IMG/VR virus record: IMGVR_UViG_2974778606_000001
Span: 68,886-132,885 of that record
From: a virus
Lineage: Duplodnaviria > Caudoviricetes
DNA: 64,000 nt
Direction: 5' to 3' (one strand)
The notes below the pieces were generated by a model that saw only the letters and a program-made list of their open reading frames with translations, ran no database searches and was not told where the DNA came from. This document shows positions 1,312-30,565 of the stretch, piece by piece. Both the position numbers and the translations under genes were made by a program. Position 1 is the first letter of the stretch. The number at the start of each line of letters is the position of its first letter.

Positions 1312-1848
1312 ATGCCTGATTTAAAGCGTAAGCCGAAGGGAATCTCACGCGCTGAGATTTCTGAGATACTGGCAAAGCGCGACGGTTTCATATGTCAATA
1401 CCCAGGCTGTGACCTTCCATTTACGAAGGATAACGGACCTACCATCGACCACTGGATTCCTTTGAGCGGTGGAGGTACATGGGATATGGACAACTTGAAG
1501 CTGATGCACAAGAAGTGCAACTCTGCAAAGGGTGACCGACTACCACTTGACGACGGTACGTTGCCTGTGATAGAAAGGAAGCCTAGGGTCAGCCGAGCCA
1601 TCAAGCGAAGCGAACGACCTGAAGTCTGTGAGCGCTGCCAGTCTGGTAGGTCGCTCGGCCCGGAAGAGGAATGTGACCAATGCGGTAGCGGTCCGATGCC
1701 CCCAAGGTATCCTCAATGGGCTAAGGTGAAGCCAAACGAATGTACGCACGAAGGCATCTGGTGGTGCTGGTGCTGTATGAGCGGTGTGGTTGACAGAGTG
1801 CCAGCCAGTAAGATAGTTTTTGATGGAGGAGAGCCGGGGATAGACTAG
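1312..1848 (+). CDS. HNH endonuclease with C-terminal Cys clusters
   Basis: GGAGG RBS at 1301; CQYPGC..TIDHWIPLSGGG..N....HKKCN. Confidence 0.85.
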   Translation: MPDLKRKPKGISRAEISEILAKRDGFICQYPGCDLPFTKDNGPTIDHWIPLSGGGTWDMDNLKLMHKKCNSAKGDRLPLDDGTLPVIERKPRVSRAIKRSERPEVCERCQSGRSLGPEEECDQCGSGPMPPRYPQWAKVKPNECTHEGIWWCWCCMSGVVDRVPASKIVFDGGEPGID

Positions 1849-1875
1849 TCCCCGGCACCTCTAAAAAGGAGAGTA

Positions 1876-2478
1876 ATGACTGATGTAGATATTGTACTGA
1901 TTGTAGACCGTTCTGGTAGCATGGCTACTATCCAGATGGAAGCAGAAACGGCCATCAATCAGTTTCTCAAGGACCAGAAGGAACTTGAGGGTGACGTGTT
2001 CGTTACTTTCGTGCAATTCGACAACAAGTATGAGCAGGTTTTTGAGAAGGTGAATCTTCCCAATGTTCCTCGTGTGGAGATTACTCCTCGCGGCATGACT
2101 GCCCTGCTTGACGCAATCGGTCGAACCGTAGTGAACTATGTTCCACGAACTGAGAAGACTATCTACGTCATCATGACTGATGGCCTGGAGAATGCTTCTC
2201 AGGAGTGGACAAATGATGCGGTCAAGAATCTGATTGAAGAAGAAAAGCAGCACGGAAGTGAGTTTGTCTATCTTGGTGCAAATCAAGATGCTGTATCTGT
2301 AGGTGCTAAGATGGGAATTCCCGTTGCAAGCAGCCTAACATTTGCGGCAGACAAGCAGGGGCTTGACGCAGTATCTCGAAGTATGACAAGCTACGTATCA
2401 GCGACTCGCTCTGGACTCGCATATGAGTTCACCGATGAGGACCGCAAGAACGCTACTGGCTTGACAGACGAAGAGTGA
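1876..2478 (+). CDS. von Willebrand A domain protein
   Basis: MIDAS DRSGSM, T.L.DAIG, IMTDG.EN.S, YLGANQDA. Confidence 0.85.
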   Translation: MTDVDIVLIVDRSGSMATIQMEAETAINQFLKDQKELEGDVFVTFVQFDNKYEQVFEKVNLPNVPRVEITPRGMTALLDAIGRTVVNYVPRTEKTIYVIMTDGLENASQEWTNDAVKNLIEEEKQHGSEFVYLGANQDAVSVGAKMGIPVASSLTFAADKQGLDAVSRSMTSYVSATRSGLAYEFTDEDRKNATGLTDEE

Positions 2479-2489
2479 GCTGCTAAAGT
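2461..2489 (+). promoter_or_regulatory. Sigma70/HrdB-like promoter, representative of many (also near 3685, 6871, 9576, 13152, 15405, 21558, 24147, 28633, 33788, 34782, 42329)
   Basis: TTGACA-N17-TAAAGT; the same TTGACA-N17/18-TANNNT pattern recurs before tRNA and gene clusters. Confidence 0.75.
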
Positions 2490-2495
2490 AGTAAA

Positions 2496-2585
2496 TGTGG
2501 GTCGAACGAGATTCGGTTATCTCAAACAATTGGTGATTGAATCGCCCCGTGCAGGGGCTCTCCGAAGCTCAAATATTTATCCACA
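2496..2585 (+). ncRNA. Y RNA-like ncRNA 1
   Basis: GGGTCGAACGAG..CGGTTATCT; terminal stem TGTGGGT/ATCCACA with bulged C; starts 7 nt after a -10 box. Confidence 0.7.
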
Positions 2586-2589
2586 CAAT

Positions 2590-2660
2590 GCATCGGTAGT
2601 TTAATGGTAGAACGCCTGACTTCCAATCAGACAGCGCGGGTTCGATTCCCGCTCGGTGCT
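2590..2660 (+). tRNA. tRNA-Gly(TCC)
   Basis: Cloverleaf, anticodon loop CTTCCAA, T loop TTCGATT. Confidence 0.9.
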
Positions 2661-2782
2661 CTGACTGTTCTCTTGAAGTGCCAGCATTAGCAGAGAGAAT
2701 GCCGTTGGCGTCTGGCAACGCACGAATGGCGTCCGCTAGGTAGCACCTAGCAGGGAGAGGGCAATGTTTATCTCCCATACAT

Positions 2783-2853
2783 TCCCCTTTGGTGTAACGG
2801 CAACACAACAGACTCTGAATCTGTAGTTCCTAGTTCGAATCTAGGTTGGGGAG
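2783..2853 (+). tRNA. tRNA-Gln(CTG)
   Basis: ACAGA-CTCTGAA-TCTGT. Confidence 0.9.
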
Positions 2854-3060
2854 CTGGTCCGACTTCGTGATATCGGCGGAAATAACGGAACCGGAACTCA
2901 CATAATAACCATGGTAAAAGTGAGGAATGGCGAAGGGAAATATGCGGGAAGCGTAGGGTAAAACCACCTCGGACCGACAACTTGAAGGTGAGCAGGTTGC
3001 ATACTAGTTAGCGTAATCGAACCTCCTGCATTAACATTGGCGTACTAACACCTTCAACAT

Positions 3061-3131
3061 ATGTCCTAAGTGTTACGGTAGCACGGAAGGCTCCAACCCT
3101 TCAAGCGTGGGTTCGACTCCTACAGGACATG
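3061..3131 (+). tRNA. tRNA-Trp(CCA)
   Basis: GAAGG-CTCCAAC-CCTTC. Confidence 0.9.
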
Positions 3132-3178
3132 CTTAAAAGCCCCGACTTCGGTCGGGGCAAAACCATTTAGGAGGAAAG

Positions 3179-3688
3179 TTGGGATACTACACAGATTTCA
3201 GACTGAGTGTTGAAGGTTCTGGCCCGGTGTATGATAAGCTGATGGAGCAGAAGGATAAGGTCATCATCTCTCCTGGCGACTACGATTGGAATTTCGGCCG
3301 GTGGGTAAGTGACCACTATACCGAAAATGCAAAGTGGTACGACTGGGAAAGTGACATGAAATCATTCTCTCTCGAATGGCCAAACGTTCTGTTCATCCTT
3401 GAGGGAAGTGGCGAGGAGCCTGGCGACATGTGGAAGGCATGGTTCAGAAATGGTGCCATGCGTAAGATTGAAGCCAAGATAGTCTTTGAGACTATCGACC
3501 CAGAGCTTGACAAGTACCTTCCATACGACTATGATTTGGAGAAGAGGTTGGCCAAGAAGTACATGGACGACCTCAAGGAACGCAAGAAGTCTCTAGAAGC
3601 TGAGCTACACAGACTTCAGTCAATGCTTGACAACAGCGTCTCAGACGATGTAAGCTTCAAGAAGACGGGCGGCAAGGACAAGAGTTGA
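3179..3688 (+). CDS. Hypothetical phage protein
   Basis: AGGAGG RBS, TTG start, 169 aa. Confidence 0.7.
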   Translation: MGYYTDFRLSVEGSGPVYDKLMEQKDKVIISPGDYDWNFGRWVSDHYTENAKWYDWESDMKSFSLEWPNVLFILEGSGEEPGDMWKAWFRNGAMRKIEAKIVFETIDPELDKYLPYDYDLEKRLAKKYMDDLKERKKSLEAELHRLQSMLDNSVSDDVSFKKTGGKDKS

Positions 3689-3744
3689 CACCGCCGAGAG
3701 CGTCTGCTAAGATTAAGTACAACGCAGCAAGCGATTGCTGCTAT

Positions 3745-3816
3745 CAGGCACGGGGAAGATGGTAATCCGTTGGCTTTGGAAGCCTAAGACACTCGGTTCG
3801 ATTCCGAGGTGCCTGA
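3745..3816 (+). tRNA. tRNA-Pro(TGG)
   Basis: C1-G72, A73; loop TTTGGAA. Confidence 0.8.
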
Positions 3817-3951
3817 CCGAATGTAGCTCCTAGGGGCTACACGTCCTGCGAGGGTGAGTGGTGGAGCGCCTGAATCTTGCGAGGTTCGGGACCGAGTTCG
3901 AGTCTCGGCACACTGCGTACTGGGGCTGATACGATAACTCAGCAAATACTT

Positions 3952-4025
3952 CGGGATGTGGCGCAGTTTGGTAGCGCGGTGCGTTTGGGGCGCAATGGTC
4001 GCAGGTTCGAATCCTGTCATCCCGA
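3952..4025 (+). tRNA. tRNA-Pro(TGG)
   Basis: CGGGATG/CATCCCG acceptor; loop TTTGGGG. Confidence 0.9.
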
Positions 4026-4028
4026 CAA

Positions 4029-4178
4029 TTTGGGTCGAAAGAAAACGGTTATCTTACACAATGGATAATAGGTTCGATTCCTATCTGTGCCGTAACAAGC
4101 ACTGGTAAAGCCATCCGAGATGTGCGTGGTAGGATGGCATAAGGACTACGCTCTCTCCGTTCTCATCACTTACCTAAA
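4029..4178 (+). ncRNA. Y RNA-like ncRNA 2 (YrlA-like, contains T arm)
   Basis: GGGTCGAAAGA..CGGTTATCT; internal ATAGG-TTCGATT-CCTAT; 3' CTCCGTTCTCA..TTACCTAAA pairs with the 5' end. Confidence 0.75.
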
Positions 4179-4187
4179 GGATTTACT

Positions 4188-4709
4188 ATGACAGTACTTC
4201 TAAGGACAATCCACGGAAGCCATCTGTATGGCCTCGCTCACGCAGGGTCCGATAAGGATATCTACGAAGTCATTGCGACTAAGCGGACTGCGCGTAAGCG
4301 AAACATTAAGCAAACCATCGTGGATGGAGTTGACAAAACGGTCGTAGACCTGTCAACATTCATGCATATGGTTGACGAATGCGTACCTCAAGCACTTGAA
4401 GCGCTATGGACGCCGGTCGCTGAGATTGATGAAATCCACGAATTCCGGACACAATATCGAGTGAATCGCGCCAAGATGAAGGAAGTATACATTCGAACCG
4501 CTCTGAACTTTGCCAAGCAAAATGATGTTAAGCGTAGGCGTCACGCCATCCGCTTGCTTCTGAACCTTGGTGCAGCATTGGAATACGGGAAGTTTAATCC
4601 CAGACTCTCCAATATGGATAAGTTCATTCTCCGTTCATCACTCGGAGAATCTGGAGCATATGAGGACGTTTTTCTAGGCGTCCTTGATGAAGTACAAAAG
4701 TGGGTCTGA
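4188..4709 (+). CDS. DNA polymerase beta-family nucleotidyltransferase (RlaP-like)
   Basis: GSHLYG.....SDKDI motif. Confidence 0.8.
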   Translation: MTVLLRTIHGSHLYGLAHAGSDKDIYEVIATKRTARKRNIKQTIVDGVDKTVVDLSTFMHMVDECVPQALEALWTPVAEIDEIHEFRTQYRVNRAKMKEVYIRTALNFAKQNDVKRRRHAIRLLLNLGAALEYGKFNPRLSNMDKFILRSSLGESGAYEDVFLGVLDEVQKWV

Positions 4710-4726
4710 AAGACGGCTCACGCCAC

Positions 4727-4799
4727 TGGGCGGTGGCGAACCGGTGAACGCACCTCTCTGATAAGGAGGCATTGGAGGGTTCAACTCCCTCTCGCCCAA
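4727..4799 (+). tRNA. tRNA-Ile(GAT)
   Basis: CCTCT-CTGATAA-GGAGG. Confidence 0.85.
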
Positions 4800-4838
4800 C
4801 TGGTCTCAATGGTGAGACACTAACGAAATAACAATACA

Positions 4839-6656
4839 ATGGTAGATTTCGACAAGAGACATTCCAAGGAACTTGTGAAACGCCCTGACACAGACCTGGT
4901 TGATACCAGGTCTTTTCGGTCTTCCGGTCAGGGTGTATTTTCGCATGTCCGAAAAGGAATGAAAGTTACCACTAAGGCCATTCTGGATTGGGTCTACCTG
5001 AATGACTATAAGGAAGAGATTGCTAAGGCGAAGATTGATGGCAATTTGGAAAAGGCCCGAAAACTTAAGATTGAACAGGAAAAGCGCAGTGAGCCAAGGC
5101 GGAAGAGATTCTATTCTATTCTTGCTTTCCTGGCTGCCCTGACAGGATGGGCATACGTGACATGGAGCATCGTACCGATTCTCTTTGTTGCAGGTGCCGC
5201 GCTGGTTGTGATGTGGTTCGTAGGAAGTGGCTTCAAGCCATCTGAAGCCTTCTCTGCCATTACAGGAAGCATGGACGAGAAGGACGACCCTATGGAGCCT
5301 TTCCCAATTGCTGACGCTCGCAACAGAGACGAGGCTCAGGAATGCTTGAGGAGAGCGCTTCTTGCTGAGGGAATCACTCCCAGGGTTATCTTGGAACCAA
5401 CTCGTTACAATTGGGGATGGGAAATTCCGGTAGTTCTGAGAAAGGGTACTCCTGACGATGTAATGGCTAAGGCCAAGAAGATGGAAACTCTTATGAGACT
5501 TCCATCTGATGGAATGCTGGTAGCAGCTACTAGATTCCGGGCCGAAGTAATTATCAGACTTATGCAGACTGACCCATTTGCTGATATGACATCAGAGCCT
5601 AGAGCAGAACCATTGTCTCGTTCTATCAAGAACAAGTACAAGATTGCTCAGCGAATGGACGGTACGCCTCTTGAAATCTCTTTGCTGAGAAACCACGCAG
5701 TTGTTATTGCTGCGCCTGGTGGTGGTAAGTCAATGTTCATGCGTAAGCTGGCAGACATCACCACTAGCTGTAGAGACTGTGTAACTTGGGACATTGACCC
5801 TGGTGGTAATGGACTTGAGGTCTTCGGAAGGGCTATCGCACGACGTGGTAGGACGGAAGAGGAAATTGAGGAAATGCTTACCGAGGCTCTGGAGTACACC
5901 AAGATTCGTGCAAAGAAGCTGACGAAGCTGGGAATGGGTGACAACTGGCAGCCAACCAAGGAGCATCCTGCCCTCATCATCTTCATTGATGAGTTTATTC
6001 AGCTAAACAAGAAGTGCAAGGATTTGGCCATTCAGATTATCCGCAATGGACGTAAGTCTGCTATTACTGTCGTACTGGCTGCACAGCAGGCTACAAAGGA
6101 CACTCTTGGTGCCGCCATTGCAGATGCGGTGTCTATCAAGGTTATGTTTGCTTCTCGTCATGCTGACGTACCTCTCGTGTTTGGTGAGGGCATGTTGTCG
6201 CAGGGCTGGAGACCTGATAAGCTACATCCAGCATCAGGTGAGGATGTGGAAGACGCTGGTAAGTGCTACATTTTGGGCGGTGGCTCAAGAGAGCCTTACT
6301 TGTACAAGGTCTTCCCAATCGAACCAGATGAGGCAATCGAGATGGGTGATGAACGTGAAGCAGAGGGCATGCCCGAGCTTGACAAGGATACCTACCTAGA
6401 TGTTACAGTGACAGACACAACCGACAAGCGACTGCTTGAGGACGTGCTTGACATCTTTGAGAACTTCGACGAGAATGATTGGCTACCGGCCAGCATCTTG
6501 GTCAAGGAACTCAAGGGTTACGGTCACACCTTGACAGCCCGTCAGTTGCATGAGATTCTAGGGGATACCGGCCGAGAGAGCCGTATTTGGGAAGGGTCCA
6601 AGTACAAGGTGGCTGGTTACTTCCGAAAGAACATCGAGAAGCAATTGGAGAAGTAA
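4839..6656 (+). CDS. FtsK/SpoIIIE-family (TraB-like) DNA translocase
   Basis: Two N-terminal TM helices, Walker A APGGGKS, Walker B IFIDE, GRK..I.V.LAAQ, C-terminal HTH-like region. Confidence 0.8.
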   Translation: MVDFDKRHSKELVKRPDTDLVDTRSFRSSGQGVFSHVRKGMKVTTKAILDWVYLNDYKEEIAKAKIDGNLEKARKLKIEQEKRSEPRRKRFYSILAFLAALTGWAYVTWSIVPILFVAGAALVVMWFVGSGFKPSEAFSAITGSMDEKDDPMEPFPIADARNRDEAQECLRRALLAEGITPRVILEPTRYNWGWEIPVVLRKGTPDDVMAKAKKMETLMRLPSDGMLVAATRFRAEVIIRLMQTDPFADMTSEPRAEPLSRSIKNKYKIAQRMDGTPLEISLLRNHAVVIAAPGGGKSMFMRKLADITTSCRDCVTWDIDPGGNGLEVFGRAIARRGRTEEEIEEMLTEALEYTKIRAKKLTKLGMGDNWQPTKEHPALIIFIDEFIQLNKKCKDLAIQIIRNGRKSAITVVLAAQQATKDTLGAAIADAVSIKVMFASRHADVPLVFGEGMLSQGWRPDKLHPASGEDVEDAGKCYILGGGSREPYLYKVFPIEPDEAIEMGDEREAEGMPELDKDTYLDVTVTDTTDKRLLEDVLDIFENFDENDWLPASILVKELKGYGHTLTARQLHEILGDTGRESRIWEGSKYKVAGYFRKNIEKQLEK

Positions 6657-6657
6657 C

Positions 6658-6873
6658 ATGTGGACAGCGGGTGTAATCTTTTACCTCGCAGTCTGTGCTT
6701 ACCTTTGTAAGAAGAAGGGTTGGCAGATTCATTACATTGCCTGGGGCATGGTTGGTGGACTGATTCTCGCCACCATCGTTCCGACCCTTCCAGCACAGAC
6801 GAAGCAGACAATGGAAAACGCTGCTCAGGCAGTTGTTTCTATCTTCGAAAGTTCCGGCATCGGGCAGGGTTGA
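6658..6873 (+). CDS. Small membrane protein directly after the translocase
   Basis: Two hydrophobic segments; starts 1 nt after the translocase stop. Confidence 0.7.
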   Translation: MWTAGVIFYLAVCAYLCKKKGWQIHYIAWGMVGGLILATIVPTLPAQTKQTMENAAQAVVSIFESSGIGQG

Positions 6874-6931
6874 CAGCAACTCTGCCTCGCTGTAGGATAG
6901 ACTTAAACCTAGTCCTTGTGGGGCTAGCGGA

Positions 6932-7004
6932 GCGCCTGTAGCATAACGGTCGATGCATCTGTCTTATAAGCAGACGATAGGTGGTTCAATTCCACCCAGG
7001 CGCA
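6932..7004 (+). tRNA. tRNA-Ile(TAT)
   Basis: TCTGT-CTTATAA-GCAGA. Confidence 0.85.
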
Positions 7005-7031
7005 CTTCATAACTACAATCTAGGGGCAAGA

Positions 7032-7196
7032 ATGGCTCTTACGCATTCCCACGGTACACGGGTTGTTGTGCTCAAGGGAAGTCACCGAAATCAAGTTGGC
7101 ACTGTTACTGTCAAGGTCAGAATGAAGGTCATCATCCTTGACAAGGACAACGTCGAGCTGATGGGTGCCTCTGACGAAATGGTCAGGAAGCTGTGA
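7032..7196 (+). CDS. Small KOW/SH3-like protein
   Basis: GTRVVVLKGSHRNQVGTV. Confidence 0.6.
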   Translation: MALTHSHGTRVVVLKGSHRNQVGTVTVKVRMKVIILDKDNVELMGASDEMVRKL

Positions 7197-7550
7197 AGTG
7201 CAAGAAGTGTGGGGAATCTGAGAAGGAAGTGCGTGTTGCTCCCATCGTAGGTGACCCACTATGTGAGAGATGCTGGAACGACGTTCAGAATGATATGCGT
7301 CGGAAAGGTGCAAACTCTAAGAGCGAGTACGAAGAGTACGTCCGAACGCAATACAAGAGATGGCTGAGGAGCTGATTATGGAAAGTAAGAAGCACCTTGA
7401 GGTCGGAGACACCGTTTACGTTCTTCATGCACGGGCGGAAGTCTGGGACCTTGTTCCTTCCAACACTGCTATGATTAAGGTGTTGATGAAGGAAGGCCCT
7501 TCTGAGGGCCAGGTTTTCCCTGTAGTCCTTAAGCAAGTTGAGCGCGGCTG

Positions 7551-7754
7551 ATGTTTCAAAAAGGGGACATCATTCGTGTAAAGCCAGGTAATACCAAAAT
7601 GCCTAGAAAGTATTGGGGATTGACTGGTGTTATTTCTGGGCGAGAATCCTTTCTTGCTCGAAAGGTATTCCGGACAGATTACCTTATAGTTATGCATGGT
7701 AGTCTGGAACCTGCAACCTTTAAGGAAAGCGACATAGAGCTTTACCGCCCCTGA
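7551..7754 (+). CDS. Small KOW/SH3-like protein
   Basis: FQKGDIIRV...GLTGVI...F.ESDIE. Confidence 0.6.
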   Translation: MFQKGDIIRVKPGNTKMPRKYWGLTGVISGRESFLARKVFRTDYLIVMHGSLEPATFKESDIELYRP

Positions 7755-7764
7755 TGGGGCACAT

Positions 7765-7849
7765 GGAATGTAAGCGATTGGCTAGCAGGTATCTTGGAAC
7801 GGTACTAAGGGTTTTACAGCCCGGCTGGGTTCGATTCCCAGGCATTCCG
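7765..7849 (+). tRNA. tRNA-Ser(GGA)
   Basis: Loop TTGGAAC, long variable arm, G73. Confidence 0.85.
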
Positions 7850-7862
7850 CAGGAGGTGTGAT

Positions 7863-8081
7863 ATGATAATCTGTGGCGACACAGTGAAAGTAAAGCACGA
7901 CCGTCCTAACGTGGACCCTGCTTATTACGGTAAGCGTGGTAGGATTCATAAGAGGACTCGTATGCTTGGTGTTCTTGGTGCTGGGCAATACGAAATTATG
8001 TTCTTCGAAAGTGACCTGAATCATCCAATTATGGGTGTCATGGGTGGCTTCAATGAAGATGACTTGGAAGTTGAACGCTGA
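7863..8081 (+). CDS. Small KOW/SH3-like protein
   Basis: GGAGG RBS; GDTVKV...GKRGRI...FNEDDLE. Confidence 0.6.
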   Translation: MIICGDTVKVKHDRPNVDPAYYGKRGRIHKRTRMLGVLGAGQYEIMFFESDLNHPIMGVMGGFNEDDLEVER

Positions 8082-8090
8082 CTTCCCTAT

Positions 8091-8176
8091 GGAGGCACGC
8101 ATTGGTGGGCTTATCGGTCTTGAAAACCGTGATGGCGTAGTGATATGCCGTGGGGGTTCGATTCCCTCTGTCTCCG
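8091..8176 (+). tRNA. tRNA-Ser(TGA)
   Basis: CGGT-CTTGAAA-ACCG, long variable arm. Confidence 0.85.
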
Positions 8177-8555
8177 CTTCGCCCGGTACATAATGTACCG
8201 GGCATTTTTGTAGGAGCATAATGCTAGGAAAAGGAAAGAAGCAGAAGGACTGCTATCATGCCAGAGTAAGAGAAATATATGGTGACGAAATCATCGCCTC
8301 TGGCTATAAGCGCGCCTACTGCTACGATTGCAAAAGATACCTGCCCGAACTACCTCCAGAGAGAAGAAAGTAAATGGCCAAGGAGTTCCCCAAGGGGAAT
8401 AACAAGAGGGACTTCATCGAGTTCCTTGAGAAGAACAGAATTGAATTCTGGTGCTCCATCTGCAATACCGAAAACCCTCGCAAGTGTCAGTGCTGGACAG
8501 ACATTCAGCGATGGGAGCAGGTTGAGCTGTGGCAGGGTGAGGAGAGGCGCAAGAA

Positions 8556-8948
8556 GTGACAGCCGTTCTCATCGGTGTCCTGCTCCATTTCATTGGTGAT
8601 TATCTCATTCAGACAGACTGGATGGCACAGCTAAAGACAAAGCGCTGGCTACCGGCCATTGTCCACGGTGTCACCTATGGTGTCCCATTCATGTTTGTCA
8701 CGATGTCACCAATAGCTTTGGCTGTCATCATTGTCACTCACATTGTCATCGACCATTATCGACTGGCAAGACATGTTGTCTGGGCAAAGAACCAGCTAGC
8801 ACCAAAAGAATGGCGGTATTCATGGGCTGAGGGTAACCTCACTGGATATCGCAATGACGCACCACCATGGTTGACAACCTGGTTGATGATTATCGCGGAC
8901 AACACTCTGCATGTCATCATCAACACTCTAGCCATCCTCTATCTATGA
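8556..8948 (+). CDS. DUF3307-like membrane protein
   Basis: H.IGDY..QTDWMA..K, H...D, DN.LH. Confidence 0.75.
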   Translation: MTAVLIGVLLHFIGDYLIQTDWMAQLKTKRWLPAIVHGVTYGVPFMFVTMSPIALAVIIVTHIVIDHYRLARHVVWAKNQLAPKEWRYSWAEGNLTGYRNDAPPWLTTWLMIIADNTLHVIINTLAILYL

Positions 8949-8969
8949 GGATGGCTTTTGTCATTCTCA

Positions 8970-9055
8970 GGACAGTCTGTCACTTGTCCCGTGACATGTC
9001 CTGTGACACGATGACATGTCCAGTGACATCCATGTGACATGTCCTACGGCTGTCC
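8970..9055. repeat. Cluster of (G/A)TGACATGTCC repeats
   Basis: GACATGTC palindrome at 8993, 9013 and 9036, plus partial GTGACA copies at 9003 and 9023; non-coding. Confidence 0.85.
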
Positions 9056-9312
9056 TCGCAATTTGAGAAAGAGGCGGCGGCTCCGGAGGTCGCATTCGTT
9101 TTGTTCAATCCTCAGAGCGCGGCCCGGCGGCCTTGAGGACGGAAGAATGTCTTAGAGACCAGATACAAGAGAGAAGACCTAATAGGTTCAAGGAGGGAGT
9201 TGACAGGATTCTCAGAGGTCTGCTAAGGTGTAGTTACACTAGAAAAGAATAAAGAAAAATATCTAGAAAGAATCTAAACCGGTTCTAAATAATATAGAAT
9301 AGATTAGAGAAT

Positions 9313-9591
9313 ATGAGACTATTTGAACTTCATAGAGATATAGACTCCTCTGGAGTCTCTGGCACAGGCGTTGTTGCTCAAGGTGTTGAGTTTGACAATC
9401 GTCAGTGTTGTATGACATGGTTGACGGAGTGGAACTCAGTGGCTGTCTATCCCGACATCCAGACCCTTGAAGCTATCCATGGACACGGTGGCAACACTCG
9501 TGTAGTATGGGTGGAAGGCCCGGCGACACAGAAGTATGTAAGAGTTGCTGGTAAAGACAGACCAATTCAGAGAGTTGACAAGCTCTCTTGA
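9313..9591 (+). CDS. Hypothetical phage protein
   Basis: SGVSGTGVVAQGVEF..HGHGG; follows a promoter. Confidence 0.7.
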   Translation: MRLFELHRDIDSSGVSGTGVVAQGVEFDNRQCCMTWLTEWNSVAVYPDIQTLEAIHGHGGNTRVVWVEGPATQKYVRVAGKDRPIQRVDKLS

Positions 9592-9677
9592 GTCATGTAG
9601 AGTAAAACGTAGATGGTCGGCAAGCAGGTAAGAGAGGAACACAGGAGCTTGAGCGACAACCCCTCCACCATCACCTT

Positions 9678-9753
9678 GCCTCTGTAGTATAGTCTGGTCT
9701 AATGCACCTGATTGTCAATCAGGAAATCGCCGGTTCAAATCCGGTCAGGGGCG
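9678..9753 (+). tRNA. tRNA-Asp(GTC)
   Basis: CCTGA-TTGTCAA-TCAGG. Confidence 0.9.
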
Positions 9754-10373
9754 CATATGAAATGGGATATAGAGCTGGTATTGGAGCATCAACCGACAGG
9801 GTTTGCTCGACAGATAATGATGATAGGTCATCCAGCAGAATCCATGTTTGATATAGTAAGAACCCTGATAGAAAACTCAGCAGAACTAGCTGACGATGTC
9901 AGGGTCACTCACCTTGAAATAAGGGAGAATAATGGCAGCGATTCGATACTGCCCTAACTGCTTCAAGAATGTTCTCACACAGCCCTTGAAGCAGAGTTGC
10001 AGTGAGTGTGGACGAAAGCACACACTTCCTGTTGACAGAAGTCTTCCAATTCCGGAAGATAGAGGTAAGCACGATAGGTTTGTTGACTACCGAGAATACC
10101 GTGAGGATTAATGGCTGACAAGCAGTGGCTCGTAAAGGGTCATTACACCAAGGACGGAAAGCGAAAGCCTTTCGATAACGTTTATTCCGCTTCAAATAAG
10201 TCCGGTGCTGAACGGGCTGCCAAGGCTGACTATGATAGTTATGTCAATGGTGGATATGAGAAGGGGACCTTTGGCAAGCTCAATGTAACCCAGGTTAGTG
10301 AATGGACTGAGAAGGACCGCAAGGCTTTTCTCAAGTCTAAGGGTATTAAGTGAAGAAGGCCCGGAAGGGCTGA

Positions 10374-10444
10374 CCCGGCATAGTGTAGTGGAAACACGAT
10401 ACATTGTCAGTGTATTATCGAGGGTTCAATTCCCTCTGCCGGGA
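10374..10444 (+). tRNA. tRNA-Asp(GTC), atypical A73
   Basis: ATACA-TTGTCAG-TGTAT. Confidence 0.8.
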
Positions 10445-10448
10445 CTTT

Positions 10449-10558
10449 GCGGGTCGAAAGAGTAATCGGTTATCTTCCCAATTGAAATGAGAAACGGCAG
10501 GTTCGAATCCTGCAAGGGCCAAGGAACGGCCAACTCCGATTCTCACCAATATATCCGC
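10449..10558 (+). ncRNA. Y RNA-like ncRNA 3 (YrlA-like, contains T arm)
   Basis: GCGGGTCGAAAGAG..CGGTTATCT; GCAGG-TTCGAAT-CCTGC; 3' CTCCGATTCTCA..ATCCGC; about 770 nt upstream of Ro60. Confidence 0.8.
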
Positions 10559-10564
10559 TACAGT

Positions 10565-10888
10565 ATGAATACTGAAGAAAGAATTGCAAAGTTCAAGGAA
10601 CTCTGGAAGGAACATACATATTTCGAGGATGCCATGGGCTGGCTCGAAGATGAAATTCCAGAAGGAGAATTCAAGCCTAAGTGGGTTACCACTGTTGAAG
10701 AGGATGAGTCTCGCTGGATGATTCACACCCTTGAGGTGATGGAGATTGACGAAGGCGTATACGTTGGTGTACGCTGGGAGCGAGGCAAGACAGAGATGCA
10801 GGAAAACCTGTACGAAGACGACGATGTCTACCTTCTTGACAAGAAGATTGTTGAGAGAGTAGAGTGGGAGACTAAGAAGAGGCTATGA
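10565..10888 (+). CDS. Hypothetical acidic protein
   Basis: ORF after Y RNA 3; overlaps next gene (ATGA). Confidence 0.65.
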   Translation: MNTEERIAKFKELWKEHTYFEDAMGWLEDEIPEGEFKPKWVTTVEEDESRWMIHTLEVMEIDEGVYVGVRWERGKTEMQENLYEDDDVYLLDKKIVERVEWETKKRL

Positions 10889-11307
10889 AGAACTGGCTTG
10901 GACATGATATTGTCGTAGGCGCAGTTGTCTTTCGCGGTGGAAGGCAGGGAGACAGTTCCTCCTTCCGCGTCGGCGAAGTCGATGCAATCGACGAGACAAA
11001 GCGCACGGCTCGTGTAATCTGGCATTGGGTTCCTTGTCAACGGCCGGTGTGGGATAGTGACCAATATGAGTATTGGCATCAGGACGACAATCGGTATTAC
11101 GTAGAGGGCCCAAGTGAGGCCCATACCCAGAAAACTCGATATAACATCAACGACCTTGTTCGTCTTGATGATGAAACTCTTGAGCGCCTGAATAAGCGTC
11201 ATAAGCTTATCAAGGCAGCCATTCACTACAAGATTCGCAAGGAAGACTTTGCTCAGTTTGAGCACGATTTTGAAATGGGACTAATTCCCGAATACTCTAT
11301 GCCTTAG
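10885..11307 (+). CDS. Hypothetical protein
   Basis: 140-aa ORF in operon context. Confidence 0.65.
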   Translation: MKNWLGHDIVVGAVVFRGGRQGDSSSFRVGEVDAIDETKRTARVIWHWVPCQRPVWDSDQYEYWHQDDNRYYVEGPSEAHTQKTRYNINDLVRLDDETLERLNKRHKLIKAAIHYKIRKEDFAQFEHDFEMGLIPEYSMP

Positions 11308-11325
11308 AAAGGGCCGGTAAGAAAA

Positions 11326-12972
11326 ATGTCAAACGCACTTAATAACGCTGCCAAGAGTCTTAACAAGACTGCACAGACTCAGCGTGCTCGCAAGGACCAG
11401 GTCAAGAACAACGCTGGTGGATTCGTCTTCCAGGTTTCTGACCAGGCCAGGCTTGAGCGATTTCTGATTCTGGGTGTTGATGGTGGCACCTATTACGTAT
11501 CTGAAGTTGACCACGCAAAGCATAACGTCGACTTCCTCAATGAGATGATTGAGCGAGACGAATCCTCTGTACTTAACACCATTGTGGACGTGTCTGTCAA
11601 TGGTCGTGCGTACAAGCAGTCTCCTGCTCTGTTCGCTCTAGCCTCTGTTATTGCCCATGGCAAGGACAAGCAGGCGGTCAAGGCAGTATTCAATCGTGTC
11701 GTTCGTACAGGTACTCACCTGTATGAGTTGATGAACTACCTTACTTCACTCAATGTGGGTTGGGGTCGTTCAAAGCGAGAGATTGTTGCTTCTTGGTTTG
11801 ACCGAGATGCTGACAAGCTGGCTTACCAGGCGGTCAAGTACCGTTCTCGTAAGTTTGGCGAGCAGACTTGGACGCTCCGAGATGTAATGCGTCTTTCCCA
11901 CCCACGAGATGTGAACACGTCTGTTGCAGACTTTGTTCTGGGCAAGCCTCATGACGCTATAGATGACCTTCGGGTTATCGAGGGCTTCAAGAAGATGCAG
12001 AAGGCTCAGTCAGTGGACGATGTTCACAGCGTTCTCCGTGAGTACGAGATGCTTTCATGGGAGGCAATCCCAACTCAGTTCCTCAAGGATGTGAGTGTAT
12101 GGAAGCGAATCTTCGCTAACGGACAGCTTCGTGGCCAGGCTCTAGTCCGAAACATTACTCGCCTCGCGCGAATTGGTGCTTTCCAGGACATGCGCTTTGC
12201 TGCTGCTTATGCAGGACAGCTCACGAATCAGGAGATGATTGTACAGACTCGTCTGCACCCAATCAACTTCCTGAACGCGACTGTTGTGTATAATGAAGGC
12301 CAGATGAAGACCGTAAGGGACCGATTTGGCTGGGAGCGTGAGGAGCGTGTCAAGGACTGGACGACTGAGAGTGTTATCGTAGATGCCCTCAATGAGGGAT
12401 TCCACAAGGCATTCAAGGCTGTCGAGCCTGCTGGTAAGCGAACGATGCTAGCCATCGATGTTTCAGGTTCTATGAGTGCAAAGGCTAATGGTCTCGACCT
12501 TAGCTGTGCTCAGGTATCTGCTGCAATGGCAATGACCATCGCTCGTACCGAGCCTGCTCACATCATCCGTGGCTTCACGTGTGACGGTTACAGCTATAGG
12601 AACAGTGGTCTTACTGACCTGGGTATTTCTGCCAGGACCGACCTTGCTACGGCAATGCGTAAGGTTCAGCGAAGTAACTTTGGTGGCACAGACTGTTCTC
12701 TTCCTATGGTCTGGGCAAAGCAGAATGATGTAGAGGTTGACACATTCGTCGTTATCACTGATAACGAGACGTATGCTGGCAACATTCACCCATTCCAAGC
12801 GCTGAAGGACTACCGTAAGGCAACTGGTATTGACGCAAGGCTCGCTGTTCTAGGAGTCGCATCAACTCCATTCACCATTGCGGACCCATCAGACGCAGGC
12901 ATGATGGACTTCGTAGGATTTGACAGCAATGCGCCTCGTGTGCTGGCTGACTTCTCCGCAGGTCGCATCTGA
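11326..12972 (+). CDS. Ro60/Rsr RNA-binding protein (TROVE + vWA)
   Basis: QVKNNAGGFVF, LERFLILG..GGTYY, GWGR, LAYQAVKY..R, D..RLSHP, DVSGSM, GGTDCSLPM, TDNET. Confidence 0.95.
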   Translation: MSNALNNAAKSLNKTAQTQRARKDQVKNNAGGFVFQVSDQARLERFLILGVDGGTYYVSEVDHAKHNVDFLNEMIERDESSVLNTIVDVSVNGRAYKQSPALFALASVIAHGKDKQAVKAVFNRVVRTGTHLYELMNYLTSLNVGWGRSKREIVASWFDRDADKLAYQAVKYRSRKFGEQTWTLRDVMRLSHPRDVNTSVADFVLGKPHDAIDDLRVIEGFKKMQKAQSVDDVHSVLREYEMLSWEAIPTQFLKDVSVWKRIFANGQLRGQALVRNITRLARIGAFQDMRFAAAYAGQLTNQEMIVQTRLHPINFLNATVVYNEGQMKTVRDRFGWEREERVKDWTTESVIVDALNEGFHKAFKAVEPAGKRTMLAIDVSGSMSAKANGLDLSCAQVSAAMAMTIARTEPAHIIRGFTCDGYSYRNSGLTDLGISARTDLATAMRKVQRSNFGGTDCSLPMVWAKQNDVEVDTFVVITDNETYAGNIHPFQALKDYRKATGIDARLAVLGVASTPFTIADPSDAGMMDFVGFDSNAPRVLADFSAGRI

Positions 12973-12975
12973 GCG

Positions 12976-13000
12976 AATCCCCTCTTCGGAGGGGATTTTT
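12976..13000 (+). terminator. Intrinsic terminator
   Basis: AATCCCCTC-TTCG-GAGGGGATT followed by a T run. Confidence 0.85.
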
Positions 13001-13187
13001 GCTATACTGGATAGATGATAAGCAAAGAAGAAAGAAAAGAACTAAAGCTCGCAAGGTCAAAGGCAGAACTAGTAAGAACTGTGACTAGCATCTTCCAGAT
13101 GATTATTGCTTCTGCGACTCTCATCATCCTGGTCTACGTCAACTTCATGCGTTGACAGGCTGCGCGTCGTGGTGTAGAGTCTTACTC

Positions 13188-13574
13188 ATGGGAACGAAGA
13201 TTTCTATCCAAGAGCTGTACGAGCGTGACAAGGGAATCTGTGGACTCTGTGGTAAGCGCGTGACGCGCAAGCAGCTCCTTGCAGGACTTGCTAATCGAGA
13301 CCACATTGTTCCGGCCTCTAAGGGAGGAACTAATCGAGCTGATAACCTGCGCCTGACTCACTACGGCTGCAACATTCGTCGTGGCAATGGTGAGGACAAT
13401 GGTGAAAAGGGCCGCTTGGTCATCGAGAACAAGCGCAGGGAAATTTTCGAAAAGCAGGATGGCTTGTGCTACCATTGCACCAATCCAATCTCTGACGACA
13501 AGGAAACGGTCGCTCTGATTCGTGGAAGCTACCTCGCCCATCGGGAATGTATTCGTCGTGATAGGCAGAAGTAG
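13188..13574 (+). CDS. HNH endonuclease, probably leaderless
   Basis: CGLCG..DHIVP.SKGG.N...NL...H..CN; ATG 7 nt after the TAGAGT -10 box. Confidence 0.8.
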   Translation: MGTKISIQELYERDKGICGLCGKRVTRKQLLAGLANRDHIVPASKGGTNRADNLRLTHYGCNIRRGNGEDNGEKGRLVIENKRREIFEKQDGLCYHCTNPISDDKETVALIRGSYLAHRECIRRDRQK

Positions 13575-27519: not shown

Positions 27520-28077
27520 ATGAAGATATTTTACGATACAGAATTTTTTGAGTGCGGACCCAAGCAGCCCATCAGGTTCATCAGTCTTGGCGCGGTACGT
27601 GATGATGGTAACGAGCTGTACCTCATCACCAACAACCTCTATACGCTCAACAGAGCAAATCAGAATCCATGGCTGGCGGAGAACGTCATCAAGCATTTGC
27701 CGGTAAAGCAGAAGGACGATGGAAGGCTTGCTTGGGACACTCAGCACGCTGACTATCATCGAGTTCTGCCGAACGAGGTGATTGCTGGACTATGGAGAGA
27801 CTTTGTGGTGGACTATGACCACGAGTCAGAGTTTGACAAGCCTGAGCTGTGGGCATACTATGGAGCCTATGACCACGTAGTCATCAGTCAGCTCTTTGGC
27901 AAGATGATTGACTTGCCAGATGGCCATCCGATATATACGATGGACATTAAGCAACGATGGCACAACGAAGGCCAGCCTGGTCTGCCCGAGCAAGAAGCCA
28001 ATGCTCACAGAGCACTTGACGACGCCCGGTGGAACAAGCTAGCATATGAGTATCTTGATGAGTACGCCAACAGGTGA
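27520..28077 (+). CDS. DEDDh 3'-5' exoribonuclease (Rv2179c/RNase AS-like)
   Basis: FYDTEF, ISLG.V, AYYGAYDHV...QLFG.M, HRALDDA.WN. Confidence 0.85.
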   Translation: MKIFYDTEFFECGPKQPIRFISLGAVRDDGNELYLITNNLYTLNRANQNPWLAENVIKHLPVKQKDDGRLAWDTQHADYHRVLPNEVIAGLWRDFVVDYDHESEFDKPELWAYYGAYDHVVISQLFGKMIDLPDGHPIYTMDIKQRWHNEGQPGLPEQEANAHRALDDARWNKLAYEYLDEYANR

Positions 28078-28086
28078 CTCATCTAT

Positions 28087-28354
28087 GGGAGTGACCAGGT
28101 TTCGACTGGTGTGGATGATTGTAGTTTGCAGCCTGACATTGAGGAGATGTCATTAAAAAGCCTCAACCCTATAAATGCCAACTCTAAGTTCGCATTCGCT
28201 CTTGCTGCCTGACGGTAGCTGAGCGGGGCTAGTGGAGCGGCCTGGCAACAGAAGGCTCCACCCACAAACTTTCTCGCAACACCCCTTGACACATGGCTGT
28301 GTATAGACTACTGTTTGAAGCGTCAGGACGGGGGTTCGATTCCCCCCACTTCCA
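28087..28354 (+). ncRNA. ssrA: tmRNA, tag (A)ANSKFAFALAA encoded at 28177-28212
   Basis: GGGAGTGA..GGTTTCGAC 5' end, G3.U70, GGAC-GGGGGTTCGATTCCCCC 3' end, ATAAAT before the GCC resume codon, LAA-stop. Confidence 0.95.
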
Positions 28355-28673
28355 CTGGAGGAATAATGCCTAAATGGATGAGGCTCAAGTCAACTGGTGA
28401 TTATCCGTTTCATCAGCGAGTTCTCTCGTCATATGAGAATGGTTTCGATGAGGGCCCGGTGGCTAAGTTTACCGCCTTCGTCATTGCTGTTATCGTCATA
28501 GTACTGGGAATGGTAGTCTTTATCATCCCACTACTCATCTGGTTTGCAATCAGGGACGGAGTGAAGAAGCTCTTTGGACTACGAAACGCTGATGACAAAG
28601 TGGATGGAAGCAATCCGCAGGATTAAGCAAGGTTGACACAAGACAAGACATCGAGTACAGTTGTACGATATGT

Positions 28674-30416: not shown

Positions 30417-30486
30417 TGTTACGTAGCTTAATTGGCAAAGCTGTCCAAGGCCATGGACGATATGGGTTCAAATCCCATCGTAACAG
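30417..30486 (+). ncRNA. tRNA-like RNA with 6-nt anticodon loop
   Basis: TGTTACG/CGTAACA acceptor, D and T arms normal, GTCCA-AGGCCA-TGGAC. Confidence 0.65.
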
Positions 30487-30565
30487 CAATATTTATTAGA
30501 CTTCATAATCTCTCCCCTGCTATACTGTAGATGCCTAATCCATCAGAGGCAGGAGGATTGATTAA

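What the first reader, a model, noticed from the sequence alone, without database searches (positions are those of the whole stretch)
2496..12972. Phage Ro60 with a family of three divergent Y-RNA-like genes
Seen: three non-coding loci (2496-2585, 4029-4178, 10449-10558) share GGGTCGAA-N-GA, CGGTTATCT, a CAAT, and a 3' CTCCG..CTCA. In each the 5' and 3' ends pair with one bulged C, and the terminal stem sequences covary between copies. The distal modules differ: copies 2 and 3 carry a true T arm (TTCGA), copy 2 has an extra long hairpin, and copy 1 has only two small hairpins. Known: Ro60 binds a bulged-C helix, and bacterial YrlA RNAs have a GNCGAAN(0-1)G motif plus a tRNA-mimic module. Inference: one phage Ro60 (11326-12972) is programmed by three interchangeable Y RNAs with different effector modules, which could tether different nucleases or ligases or decoy host factors.
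Basis: partly seen in the sequence, partly recalled or inferred. Interest (0 to 1): 0.85.

Follow-up and report, generated by a model that had tools for sequence, protein, structure and literature searches.

The report
Three Y-RNA-like genes beside phage Ro60
A Streptomyces phage carries three small structured RNA genes, each butted against a tRNA gene upstream of its Ro60 gene, that share one conserved two-helix "handle" and carry different heads; they look like the phage's own Y RNAs, a known kind of Ro60 partner, in a form that the curated RNA family models do not detect.

Summary
GGGTCGAA-N-GA...CGGTTATCT occurs three times in 64 kb, with none expected by chance. A covariance model built from relatives finds only these three sites in the whole 132,885-bp phage genome.

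Each element has:
- a 6-7 bp closing stem, whose sequence differs between the copies but stays complementary;
- an unpaired C followed by GAA;
- a second covarying stem;
- GGUUAUC, then a variable head.

The window is a Streptomyces cluster-BE-type phage. Its 548-aa ORF is a bona fide Ro60 (TROVE plus Ro60-vWA; E 7.5e-98 to Deinococcus Rsr).

The same handle model finds 276 matches in 71 of 75 further Ro60 loci (71 viral, 4 MAG). All lie on the Ro60 strand, mostly in tandem arrays just upstream, and 132 non-training matches are 94% paired with heavy compensatory change.

The elements sit 1-7 nt from tRNA genes, which suggests release by tRNA-processing enzymes.

Rfam YrlA and Y_RNA do not detect the three copies, so they are Y RNAs by architecture and context, not YrlA members. 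Expression and Ro60 binding are untested.

Phage Y RNAs, and several Y RNAs per Ro60, are already published. This scan has also noted similar handle arrays on other phage DNA. I rate it a new variant of a known kind, of moderate interest.

The parts
2461..2489 (+). Promoter-like site TTGACA-17-TAAAGT with TG extension. It ends 6 nt before c1, so c1 is probably the first gene of a c1 / tRNA-Gly / tRNA-Gln / tRNA-Trp transcription unit.
   Evidence: Consensus scan, 10 of 12 matches. The -35 hexamer and the extended -10 are conserved in 8 related phages. Consensus match only; no transcript data.
2496..2585 (+). Y-RNA-like gene c1 (90 nt). Closing stem 2496-2502 with 2579-2585. Unpaired C 2503. 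GAAC 2504-2507. Stem 2 GAG-A-UUCGG 2508-2516 with CCGAA-G-CUC 2562-2570. GGUUAUC 2515-2521. Head: hairpin 2517-2536 (UUAUC/GGUGA) and hairpin 2544-2558 (GCCCC/GGGGC).
   Evidence: R1 covariance model 61.1 bits, E 3e-12. RNAalifold on 9 orthologues independently predicts both handle stems. tRNA-Gly starts 4 nt downstream. No Rfam match at E<=10.
4029..4178 (+). Y-RNA-like gene c2 (150 nt). Closing stem 4029-4035 with 4172-4178. Unpaired C 4036. Stem 2 4041-4048 with 4157-4164. GGUUAUC 4047-4053. T arm 4068-4084. Hairpin 4087-4102. Stem A 4110-4116 with 4132-4138. Stem B 4124-4130 with 4145-4151. Stems A and B overlap topologically, so they form either an H-type pseudoknot or alternative folds.
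   Evidence: R1 78.8 bits. In 13 distinct orthologues 98% of cells are paired, with compensatory changes in stem 2, the T arm, stem A and stem B. It starts 2 nt after tRNA-Pro. Its 3' stem strand overlaps the Shine-Dalgarno AAAGGA (4176-4181) of the next gene.
10449..10558 (+). Y-RNA-like gene c3 (110 nt). Closing stem 10449-10454 with 10553-10558. Unpaired C 10455. Stem 2 GAG-U-AAUCGG 10460-10469 with CCGAUU-CUC 10536-10544. GGUUAUC 10468-10474. T arm 10497-10513. Four-bp hairpin with a 7-nt GG-containing loop at 10517-10531 (D-arm-like).
   Evidence: R1 75.7 bits. The T arm is 100% paired, with 3 of 5 pairs compensatory; the D-like hairpin is 90% paired. It starts 3 nt after tRNA-Asp. The tRNA model scores only 15.3 bits against a cut-off of 29. 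One GenBank record (Mildred21) mislabels the orthologue as tRNA-Ser.
11326..12972 (+). Ro60 (Rsr) orthologue, 548 aa: TROVE ring plus Ro60-type vWA domain.
   Evidence: Pfam vWA_Ro60 E 1.1e-59 and TROVE E 3.3e-31. PDB 2nvo (D. radiodurans Rsr) E 7.5e-98; Xenopus and human Ro60 E about 1e-79. K171, R175 and H192 align with Xenopus K170, R174 and H187.
10565..11307 (+). Two small conserved ORFs (10565-10888 and 10885-11307) between c3 and Ro60, probably in the same operon.
   Evidence: phrog_13073 and phrog_2596, both of unknown function. No Pfam match. Present in Mildred21 as gp129 and gp130.
12981..13004 (+). Terminator-like hairpin plus T tract just after the Ro60 stop codon.
   Evidence: Consensus scan. 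Pattern match only.
4188..4709 (+). RlaP-like nucleotidyltransferase gene immediately downstream of c2.
   Evidence: Pfam PF10127 RlaP (RNA repair pathway pol-beta family) E 5.7e-6, 26.6 bits against a cut-off of 23. phrog_388 nucleotidyltransferase E 1.4e-22.

Best explanation
The three loci are paralogous Y-RNA-type non-coding RNA genes of a Streptomyces cluster-BE-type phage.

**Shown by comparative analysis**
- Each folds into a conserved handle: a closing stem formed by the 5' and 3' ends, an unpaired C followed by G-A/G-A, an internal loop, a second stem, then near-invariant GGUUAYC.
- This handle occurs only next to Ro60 genes and on their strand.

**Inferred**
- The handle is the binding site of the phage Ro60. 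This rests on analogy with the bulged lower stem (GGUCCGA or GNCGAAN0-1G) that Ro60 recognises in animals and bacteria.
- The RNAs are transcribed within tRNA operons. c1 sits directly behind a conserved promoter. c2 and c3 sit directly behind a tRNA.
- They are cut out by the host tRNA-end enzymes (RNase P, RNase Z), because only 2-4 nt separate them from tRNA genes.
- The heads give one Ro60 ring three alternative adaptors or gates. c1 has two hairpins. c2 has a T arm, a hairpin and a D-like or pseudoknot module. c3 has a T arm and a D-like hairpin, that is, a tRNA elbow without an acceptor stem.
- The most likely partners are a 3'-5' exoribonuclease (host PNPase, as in Deinococcus, Salmonella and Thermus phage phiLo, or the phage's own RNase T-like enzyme) and tRNA-handling enzymes.
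- The setting is a phage RNA-maintenance island: 40 tRNAs, a tmRNA, an Rnl1-type ligase, PNKP and a nucleotidyltransferase.
For: **Motif and copy number**
- Three motif matches against none expected.
- R1 finds only these three sites in the complete 132,885-bp genome.
- In five related complete or partial genomes R1 finds only sites within 10 kb upstream of Ro60 on its strand.

**Structure on an unfitted MAFFT alignment of 32 elements**
- 84% of cells are paired, against 33-44% in slid controls.
- 84 doubly changed cells against 29 in shuffles; 0 of 500 shuffles reach the observed value.

**Independent matches**
- 132 non-training matches from Ro60 loci of 36-60% protein identity are 93.8% paired.
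- They hold 601 doubly changed cells against 188 in shuffles.

**Co-occurrence**
- 276 matches in 71 of 75 further Ro60 loci, 276 of 276 on the Ro60 strand.

**Link to YrlA**
- Family members with a full tRNA-like head give full-length sub-threshold matches to Rfam YrlA: L005:6239-6353, 34.8 bits, E 2e-6 locally; L008:8237-8334, 39.1 bits.

**Position relative to tRNAs**
- Elements lie 1-7 nt from tRNA genes or 9-16 nt from each other.

**Protein and context**
- Ro60 identity.
- RNA-repair neighbours.

**Literature**
- Bacterial Ro60 binds two or more Y RNAs made in tRNA-containing precursors (PMC4201824).
- A phage Ro60 binds two phage Y-like RNAs and host PNPase (PMC12135203).
Against:
- Rfam YrlA and Y_RNA fail to match c1, c2 and c3 even at E<=10 in searches of 108-168 nt.
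- c1 and c2 lie 8.8 and 7.1 kb from Ro60. That is farther than the 4 kb used for published YrlA calls (PMC4201824).
- The near-invariance of GGUUAYC is partly built in. My first regex required TTATC, and R1 rewards it.
- The A7 pair counts were made on an alignment fitted to the model, which leans towards the structure.
- The elements always accompany tRNA genes, so a role tied to the tRNA operon rather than to Ro60 cannot be excluded by sequence alone.
Confidence: 0.8

Rival explanations
1. The elements are cis-acting processing or punctuation signals of the tRNA operons. They would be structured spacers that guide RNase cleavage or stabilise precursors, with no dedicated protein partner. Their nearness to Ro60 would be incidental to the layout of the tRNA island.
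For: Every element abuts a tRNA gene or another element by 1-16 nt. The elements lie inside a 45-kb tRNA island.
Against: Only 3 of the 40 tRNA genes in the window have such a neighbour, and all three lie upstream of Ro60. The roughly 30 tRNAs downstream of Ro60 have none. In distant phages the arrays sit directly upstream of Ro60, on its strand in 276 of 276 cases, even where few tRNAs are near. The handle carries the published Ro-site motif (PMC4201824).
Confidence: 0.07
2. The elements are decayed tRNA genes (pseudogenes) left over from duplication in the tRNA array. They would retain T arms by descent and have no present function.
For: c2 and c3 keep canonical T arms. The tRNA model gives weak alignments: 12.7 bits for c2 and 15.3 bits for c3. 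One GenBank record annotates the c3 orthologue as tRNA-Ser.
Against: The conserved part is the non-tRNA handle. It shows compensatory changes in both stems across phages whose Ro60 proteins share only 36-60% identity, which is purifying selection on structure. c1 and many relatives have no tRNA-like part at all. ARAGORN calls none of the three.
Confidence: 0.03
3. c2 and c3 act mainly as mRNA leaders or riboregulators of the genes that follow them. c2 would control the nucleotidyltransferase gene. c3 would control the ORF-ORF-Ro60 operon, for example through Ro60 autoregulation by binding the handle in its own mRNA. On this view they are not free-standing RNAs.
For: The 3' closing-stem strand of c2 overlaps the Shine-Dalgarno sequence of gene 4188-4709 in all 14 orthologues. 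c3 lies between tRNA-Asp and the first ORF of the operon that ends with Ro60 and a terminator-like site.
Against: c1 is followed by a tRNA, not by an ORF. In distant phages the elements form tandem arrays of up to 11 copies with 9-16 nt spacers, which does not fit a leader. This role is also compatible with the best explanation rather than exclusive of it.
Confidence: 0.1

Closest known systems
Bacterial and mycobacteriophage YrlA/YrlB and Deinococcus Yrn1/Yrn2 Y RNAs with Rsr (Ro60) (Chen et al. 2014, PMC4201824; Rfam RF02553)
   Same: - Encoded upstream of Ro60 on the same strand.
- A GNCGAAN0-1G motif lies near the 5' end, within a stem formed by the 5' and 3' ends.
- Two or more Y RNAs per Ro60, one or more with T-arm or tRNA-like parts.
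- Made in precursors together with tRNA (Yrn2-tRNAAsp-Yrn1).
- Relatives in the same handle family that carry a full T arm, acceptor hairpin and D arm give full-length sub-threshold YrlA matches.
   Different: - c1, c2 and c3 are not detected by RF02553 at any threshold tried.
- None has the complete circularly permuted tRNA domain.
- The handle has a second covarying stem capped by near-invariant GGUUAYC, which is absent from the YrlA consensus shown.
- c1 and c2 lie 7-9 kb from Ro60.
- The elements are butted against tRNA genes with 2-4 nt spacers.
Thermus phage phiLo Ro60 with Yrl1 and Yrl2 (PMC12135203, 2025)
   Same: A phage-encoded Ro60 has more than one phage-encoded Y-like RNA upstream of the gene. 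The paper describes a 5'-3' stem flanking a bulge with a CGAA motif. It shows binding to the phage Ro60 and ternary complexes with host PNPase in vitro.
   Different: I did not compare the phiLo RNA sequences, which are not held here, so whether they share stem 2 and GGUUAYC is unknown. This phage has three copies, dispersed in a tRNA island, with partial tRNA mimics as heads. Nothing here is tested biochemically.
Metazoan Y RNAs (Rfam RF00019) bound by Ro60 (review PMC11277228)
   Same: A lower stem is formed by the 5' and 3' ends. A conserved 5'-strand motif (GGUCCGA) includes a critical bulged C. A variable distal part is thought to recruit other proteins. In the alignment, phage Ro60 K171, R175 and H192 fall opposite Xenopus K170, R174 and H187. 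That these residues matter for RNA binding is from my own memory of mutant studies, not checked here.
   Different: No match to RF00019. There is no oligo-U or La site. The elements have tRNA-type heads and are made in tRNA operons rather than as pol III units.

Membership tests
Y RNA in the broad sense (Ro60-partner ncRNA) | Encoded close to a Ro60 gene, on the same strand | tested here: met
   c3 ends 768 nt upstream of Ro60; c1 and c2 lie 8.8 and 7.1 kb upstream. All are on the + strand and are the only R1 matches in the 132,885-bp genome. In 71 of 75 other Ro60 loci, 276 of 276 matches are on the Ro60 strand.
Y RNA in the broad sense (Ro60-partner ncRNA) | The 5' and 3' ends pair into a stem that carries a conserved unpaired C and a GGUCCGA or GNCGAAN0-1G-type motif | tested here: met
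   GUCGAACG in c1; GUCGAAAG in c2 and c3. Closing stem covariation. The C is unpaired in 132 of 132 matches. Whether the bulge is one or two nucleotides is unresolved.
Y RNA in the broad sense (Ro60-partner ncRNA) | Stable small RNA physically bound by Ro60 | not testable with these tools
No protein-RNA tool is available.
YrlA (Rfam RF02553) | Scores at or above the curated gathering score (69 bits) with the family covariance model | tested here: not met
   No YrlA match to c1, c2 or c3 at the gathering score, nor at E<=10 in 11.5 kb or in 108-168 nt searches.
YrlA (Rfam RF02553) | Complete tRNA-like domain: T arm, acceptor-like stem-loop and D arm | tested here: not met
   c1 has none of these. 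c3 has a T arm and a D-like hairpin but no acceptor stem-loop. c2 has a T arm, a short hairpin and an enlarged D-like or pseudoknot module. Relatives L005:6222-6370 and L008:8222-8349 do have the full set.
Metazoan Y_RNA (Rfam RF00019) | Match to the family covariance model | tested here: not met
   No match at E<=10.
tRNA (Rfam RF00005; ARAGORN) | Cloverleaf scoring at or above 29 bits, or called by ARAGORN | tested here: not met
   c2 scores 12.7 bits (partial) and c3 15.3 bits. c1 has no match. ARAGORN calls none of the three.
Ro60 / TROVE protein (the ORF 11326-12972) | TROVE domain plus Ro60-type vWA domain above the Pfam cut-offs, and homology to solved Ro60 structures | tested here: met
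   PF05731 109.4 bits (cut-off 23). PF25045 201.5 bits (cut-off 27.7). 2nvo E 7.5e-98 and 1yvp E 2e-79, both over the full length.

The most novel reading that the evidence does not exclude
The handle (closing stem, unpaired C, G-R-A, stem 2, GGUUAYC) defines a distinct Y RNA class that is widespread in Ro60-encoding phages and is absent from Rfam. I also found no description of it in the papers I could search.

Members of this class are cut out of tRNA operons by tRNA-end enzymes. They display a graded series of partial tRNA mimics: the full permuted tRNA, an elbow only, a pseudoknot, or plain hairpins.

In this phage the three heads would load one Ro60 ring with different clients or partners. 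The purpose would be to police or protect the phage's own tRNA pool, for example as decoys or sensors for host tRNA-cleaving defences. They would work with the neighbouring RlaP-like nucleotidyltransferase, Rnl1 ligase, PNKP and RNase T-like exonuclease.
Probability: 0.2. Interest if true: 0.75.

Novelty: new variant of a known kind. Interest (0 to 1): 0.5.

Why it matters
**Annotation.** Ro60 genes are annotated in more than 100 sequenced Streptomyces BE phages. Their RNA partners are not. In the GenBank records listed in full, the three loci carry no RNA annotation, apart from one tRNA-Ser mislabel and one overlapping HNH CDS.

**Experimental use.** The handle is defined here with its covarying stems and a working covariance model. 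That gives a concrete, testable Ro60 binding site. It also gives a natural panel of three heads on one scaffold, in phages that are easy to grow and engineer.

**Wider pattern.** Handle arrays of 2-11 copies accompany Ro60 in most viral contigs that encode it. Multi-RNA programming of Ro60 may therefore be the rule in phages.

**Biology.** The placement beside tRNA-repair genes suggests a role in the contest over tRNA integrity during infection.

Tried and rejected
- **Rfam.** I ran the whole window at the gathering score, 11.5 kb at E<=10, and each copy alone at E<=10. No YrlA or Y_RNA match fell on the three loci. The only YrlA-like hit in the region (3886-3979, 21.8 bits, E 0.8) covers a different tRNA-like piece.
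- **Rfam on distant loci.** A gathering-score search on 7 distant Ro60 loci returned only tRNAs, so the curated YrlA cut-off misses these phage elements in general.
- **Resemblance to human Y1.** I recalled from memory a similarity between c1 (GGUUAUCUCAAACAAUUGGUGAUUG) and human Y1 RNA. No tool supports it and I do not rely on it.
- **Unconstrained single-sequence folding.** This gave weak z-scores (-2.05, -0.56, -0.77) and did not find the true closing stems for c2 and c3. Comparative analysis was needed.
- **A loose regex.** It produced many false candidates, including window 56808. R1 does not match that site, so I rejected it.
- **Promoter reading of the shared 5' motif.** I rejected this because the motif pairs with a covarying 3' partner 70-140 nt away. 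A separate conserved promoter lies upstream of c1.
- **Literature word search** for the GGUUAUC motif returned only unrelated microRNA papers.
- **Two Y RNA reviews** (PMC10870794, PMC6047535) and the supplements of Chen et al. 2014 are not held. I could not check how many Y RNAs per phage were listed there.

Full report
**What the window is.** The window covers bases 68,886-132,885 of a 132,885-bp virus record with direct terminal repeats. Its DNA matches 106 Streptomyces phage records of the cluster BE / Samistivirus type at 83-89% identity. It holds 40 tRNA genes and one tmRNA, all on the + strand. The ORF at 11326-12972 is a full-length Ro60:
- Pfam vWA_Ro60, E 1.1e-59, and TROVE, E 3.3e-31.
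- D. radiodurans Rsr (2nvo), E 7.5e-98; Xenopus and human Ro60, E about 1e-79, aligned end to end.
- GenBank relatives already call this gene 'Ro-like RNA binding protein'.

**The observation.** The pattern GGGTCGAANGA-N(3-12)-CGGTTATCT occurs three times, at 2499, 4032 and 10451 on the + strand. None was found in 100 shuffles.

| Copy | 5' strand | 3' strand |
|---|---|---|
| c1 | UGUGGGU 2496-2502 | AUCCACA 2579-2585 |
| c2 | UUUGGGU 4029-4035 | ACCUAAA 4172-4178 |
| c3 | GCGGGU 10449-10454 | AUCCGC 10553-10558 |

The shared 3' 'CTCCG..CTCA' is the 3' strand of a second stem. It pairs with the bases just before UUAUC (UUCGG/CCGAA, AACGG/CCGUU, AAUCGG/CCGAUU, plus GAG/CUC). Unconstrained single-sequence folding did not reveal this. 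Comparison did.

**Comparative test of the handle.** I fetched the Ro60 neighbourhoods of 10 related viral contigs (55-93% Ro60 identity) and found 3-6 such elements in each.
- On a plain MAFFT alignment of 32 elements, the two-helix structure (9 + 6 pairs) is 84% paired, against 33-44% when partners are slid.
- It has 84 doubly changed cells against 29 in shuffles; 0 of 500 shuffles reach that value.
- There are 19 distinct closing-stem sequences, all complementary. Examples are GUGGGU/AUCCAC, GCGGGU/AUCCGC, UUGGGU/ACCUAA, GUGAGU/AUUCAC and GUGAGC/GCUCAC.
- RNAalifold on nine c1 orthologues predicts the same two stems without guidance.

**A model and where it hits.** I built covariance model R1 from that alignment.
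- It finds exactly three sites in the window and in the whole phage genome.
- In five related genomes it finds 3-6 sites each. Every significant match is within 10 kb upstream of Ro60 and on its strand.
- A Ro60 profile found 221 viral contigs that encode a relative and 4 MAG contigs.
- In 75 new loci R1 gives 276 matches at E<0.1 in 71 loci. All are on the Ro60 strand, most lie in tandem arrays directly upstream, and one locus holds up to 11.
- Of the four loci without a match, one has 21 nt and one has about 3 kb of upstream DNA.
- 132 matches from the more distant loci (Ro60 identity 36-60%) are 93.8% paired, with 601 doubly changed cells against 188 in shuffles. That alignment is fitted to the model, so it leans towards the structure.
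- In those matches UUA is 131-132 of 132, the following Y-C is near-invariant, and the C after the closing stem can never pair.
- The base after CG (A or G) covaries with the base 5' of the closing stem's 3' strand: AU 59, GC 34, GU 27, AC 4. The bulge may therefore be CG rather than C alone. GC content could confound this.

**Relation to YrlA.** The curated YrlA model does not match c1, c2 or c3 at any setting, and neither does Y_RNA. Two relatives of the same handle family carry a full T arm, acceptor hairpin and D arm. They do give full-length YrlA alignments below the cut-off: L005:6239-6353 at 34.8 bits, and L008:8237-8334 at 39.1 bits. The handle family therefore overlaps the YrlA concept through some members. 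The three copies in this window are not YrlA members. Their motifs GUCGAAAG and GUCGAACG fit the published GNCGAAN0-1G Ro-site motif (PMC4201824).

**The heads.**
- *c1*: a hairpin that starts with UUAUC (UUAUC/GGUGA) and a GC-rich hairpin whose stem covaries in orthologues (CCCC/GGGG, CUCC/GGGG, GCCA/UGGC).
- *c2*: a T arm (AUAGG-UUCGAUU-CCUAU, one compensatory pair) and a short hairpin of variable sequence. Two further stems, GCCAUCC/GGAUGGC and GCGUGGU/ACUACGC, each have compensatory changes. They cannot nest, so they form either an H-type pseudoknot or alternative folds. One relative (L004) lacks the T arm but keeps this module.
- *c3*: a T arm (100% paired, three compensatory pairs) followed by a 4-bp hairpin with a 7-nt loop containing GG. 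This resembles a D arm, giving a tRNA elbow without an acceptor stem.

**How they are probably made.**
- c1 ends 4 nt before tRNA-Gly.
- c2 starts 2 nt after tRNA-Pro.
- c3 starts 3 nt after tRNA-Asp.
- Across 39 elements, spacers to tRNAs are 1-7 nt and spacers between elements are 9-16 nt, with few exceptions.
- A promoter-like site, TTGACA-17-TG-N-TAAAGT, ends 6 nt before c1 and is conserved in eight phages.
- c3, two small ORFs and Ro60 are followed by a terminator-like hairpin.

The inference is that the RNAs are released from tRNA-containing precursors by RNase P and RNase Z. This is as described for Deinococcus Yrn2-tRNAAsp-Yrn1 and for processing of M. smegmatis YrlA and YrlB (PMC4201824). 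No transcript data could be obtained.

**Context.** The same tRNA island encodes:
- an RlaP-like nucleotidyltransferase right after c2, whose Shine-Dalgarno sequence overlaps c2's closing stem;
- an Rnl1-type RNA ligase;
- PNKP;
- an Rv2179c/RNase T-like 3'-5' exoribonuclease next to the tmRNA.

This fits an RNA-maintenance role and offers phage-encoded candidates for head-specific partners. Host PNPase is the precedent (PMC4201824; PMC12135203).

**What is known and what is new.**
- Phage Y-like RNAs have been in print since 2014: 22 phages, mostly mycobacteriophages.
- A Thermus phage Ro60 was shown in 2025 to bind two phage Y-like RNAs and PNPase.
- Several Y RNAs per Ro60, with the suggestion that they widen the range of complexes, is also published.
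- I found no description of Y RNAs in Streptomyces BE phages.
- In the GenBank records listed in full, the loci carry no RNA annotation, apart from one tRNA-Ser mislabel (Mildred21) and one overlapping HNH CDS.
- The handle with stem 2 and GGUUAYC is not represented in Rfam.
- Earlier notes of this scan report similar handle arrays beside Ro60-like genes in other phages. This is therefore not the first sighting within the scan.

I rate it a new variant of a known kind. The comparative support for the RNA family and its link to Ro60 is strong. There is no experimental support yet for binding or function.

Noticed in passing
window 3851-3914 (and 3886-3979): An unannotated tRNA-like piece with a T arm lies between the two tRNA-Pro genes. 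It gives weak Rfam matches: mascRNA-menRNA 21.3 bits, and YrlA partial 21.8 bits, E 0.8. ARAGORN does not call it.
   Followed up: no
L005:3154-3236, L006:1303-1385, L007:1115-1195: In some relatives an 81-83 nt insert separates tRNA-Pro from c2. It has a T-arm-like CCGG-UUAAAUU-CCGG, a long hairpin and an encoded ...GGGGCUCCA end. It may be a further tRNA-like RNA.
   Followed up: no
window 27520-28077, 32200-33300, 33845-34741: The tRNA island also encodes an Rv2179c/RNase T-like 3'-5' exoribonuclease (directly before the tmRNA at 28087-28357), a T4 Rnl1-type RNA ligase and a PNKP kinase-phosphatase. Together these form a tRNA repair set.
   Followed up: partly
window 4172-4181: The 3' strand of c2's closing stem (ACCUAAA) overlaps the Shine-Dalgarno AAAGGA of the RlaP-like nucleotidyltransferase gene (start 4188). 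This is conserved in all 14 c2 orthologues aligned. It could couple RNA folding or excision to translation.
   Followed up: partly
window 1800-13200, + strand: Nine promoter-like sites have a perfect TTGACA -35 hexamer and a 17-18 nt spacer (for example 2461, 3685, 6870, 9575). Several lie just upstream of tRNA genes. In all, 24 sites were found against 12 expected.
   Followed up: partly
L001:10377-10448 (Mildred21 GenBank record): The c3 orthologue is annotated as tRNA-Ser(tga) in Mildred21. In the other listed records the c1 and c3 loci carry no RNA annotation; one record has an HNH endonuclease CDS over the c3 match.
   Followed up: yes
L048:6256-9948; L008:7999-8349 and 9643-9949: Distant Ro60 phage contigs carry long tandem arrays of handle RNAs: 11 copies in L048 and 6 in L008. 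Spacers are 9-16 nt where measured (L008).
   Followed up: partly
L016, L017, L018 (MAG contigs): Handle matches also flank Ro60 homologues (36-39% identity) on contigs binned as bacteria. In L016 they lie on both sides of the gene. I did not determine whether these contigs are prophages or chromosomal loci.
   Followed up: no
window 30417-30487: ARAGORN reports a tRNA of undetermined identity with a two-base anticodon. Rfam tRNA scores it at 46 bits.
   Followed up: no
window 2494-2587 versus relatives: c1 is the fastest-evolving copy. It is at most 77% identical to any other phage record, while the flanking DNA is 83-89% identical. The handle is still kept.
   Followed up: partly
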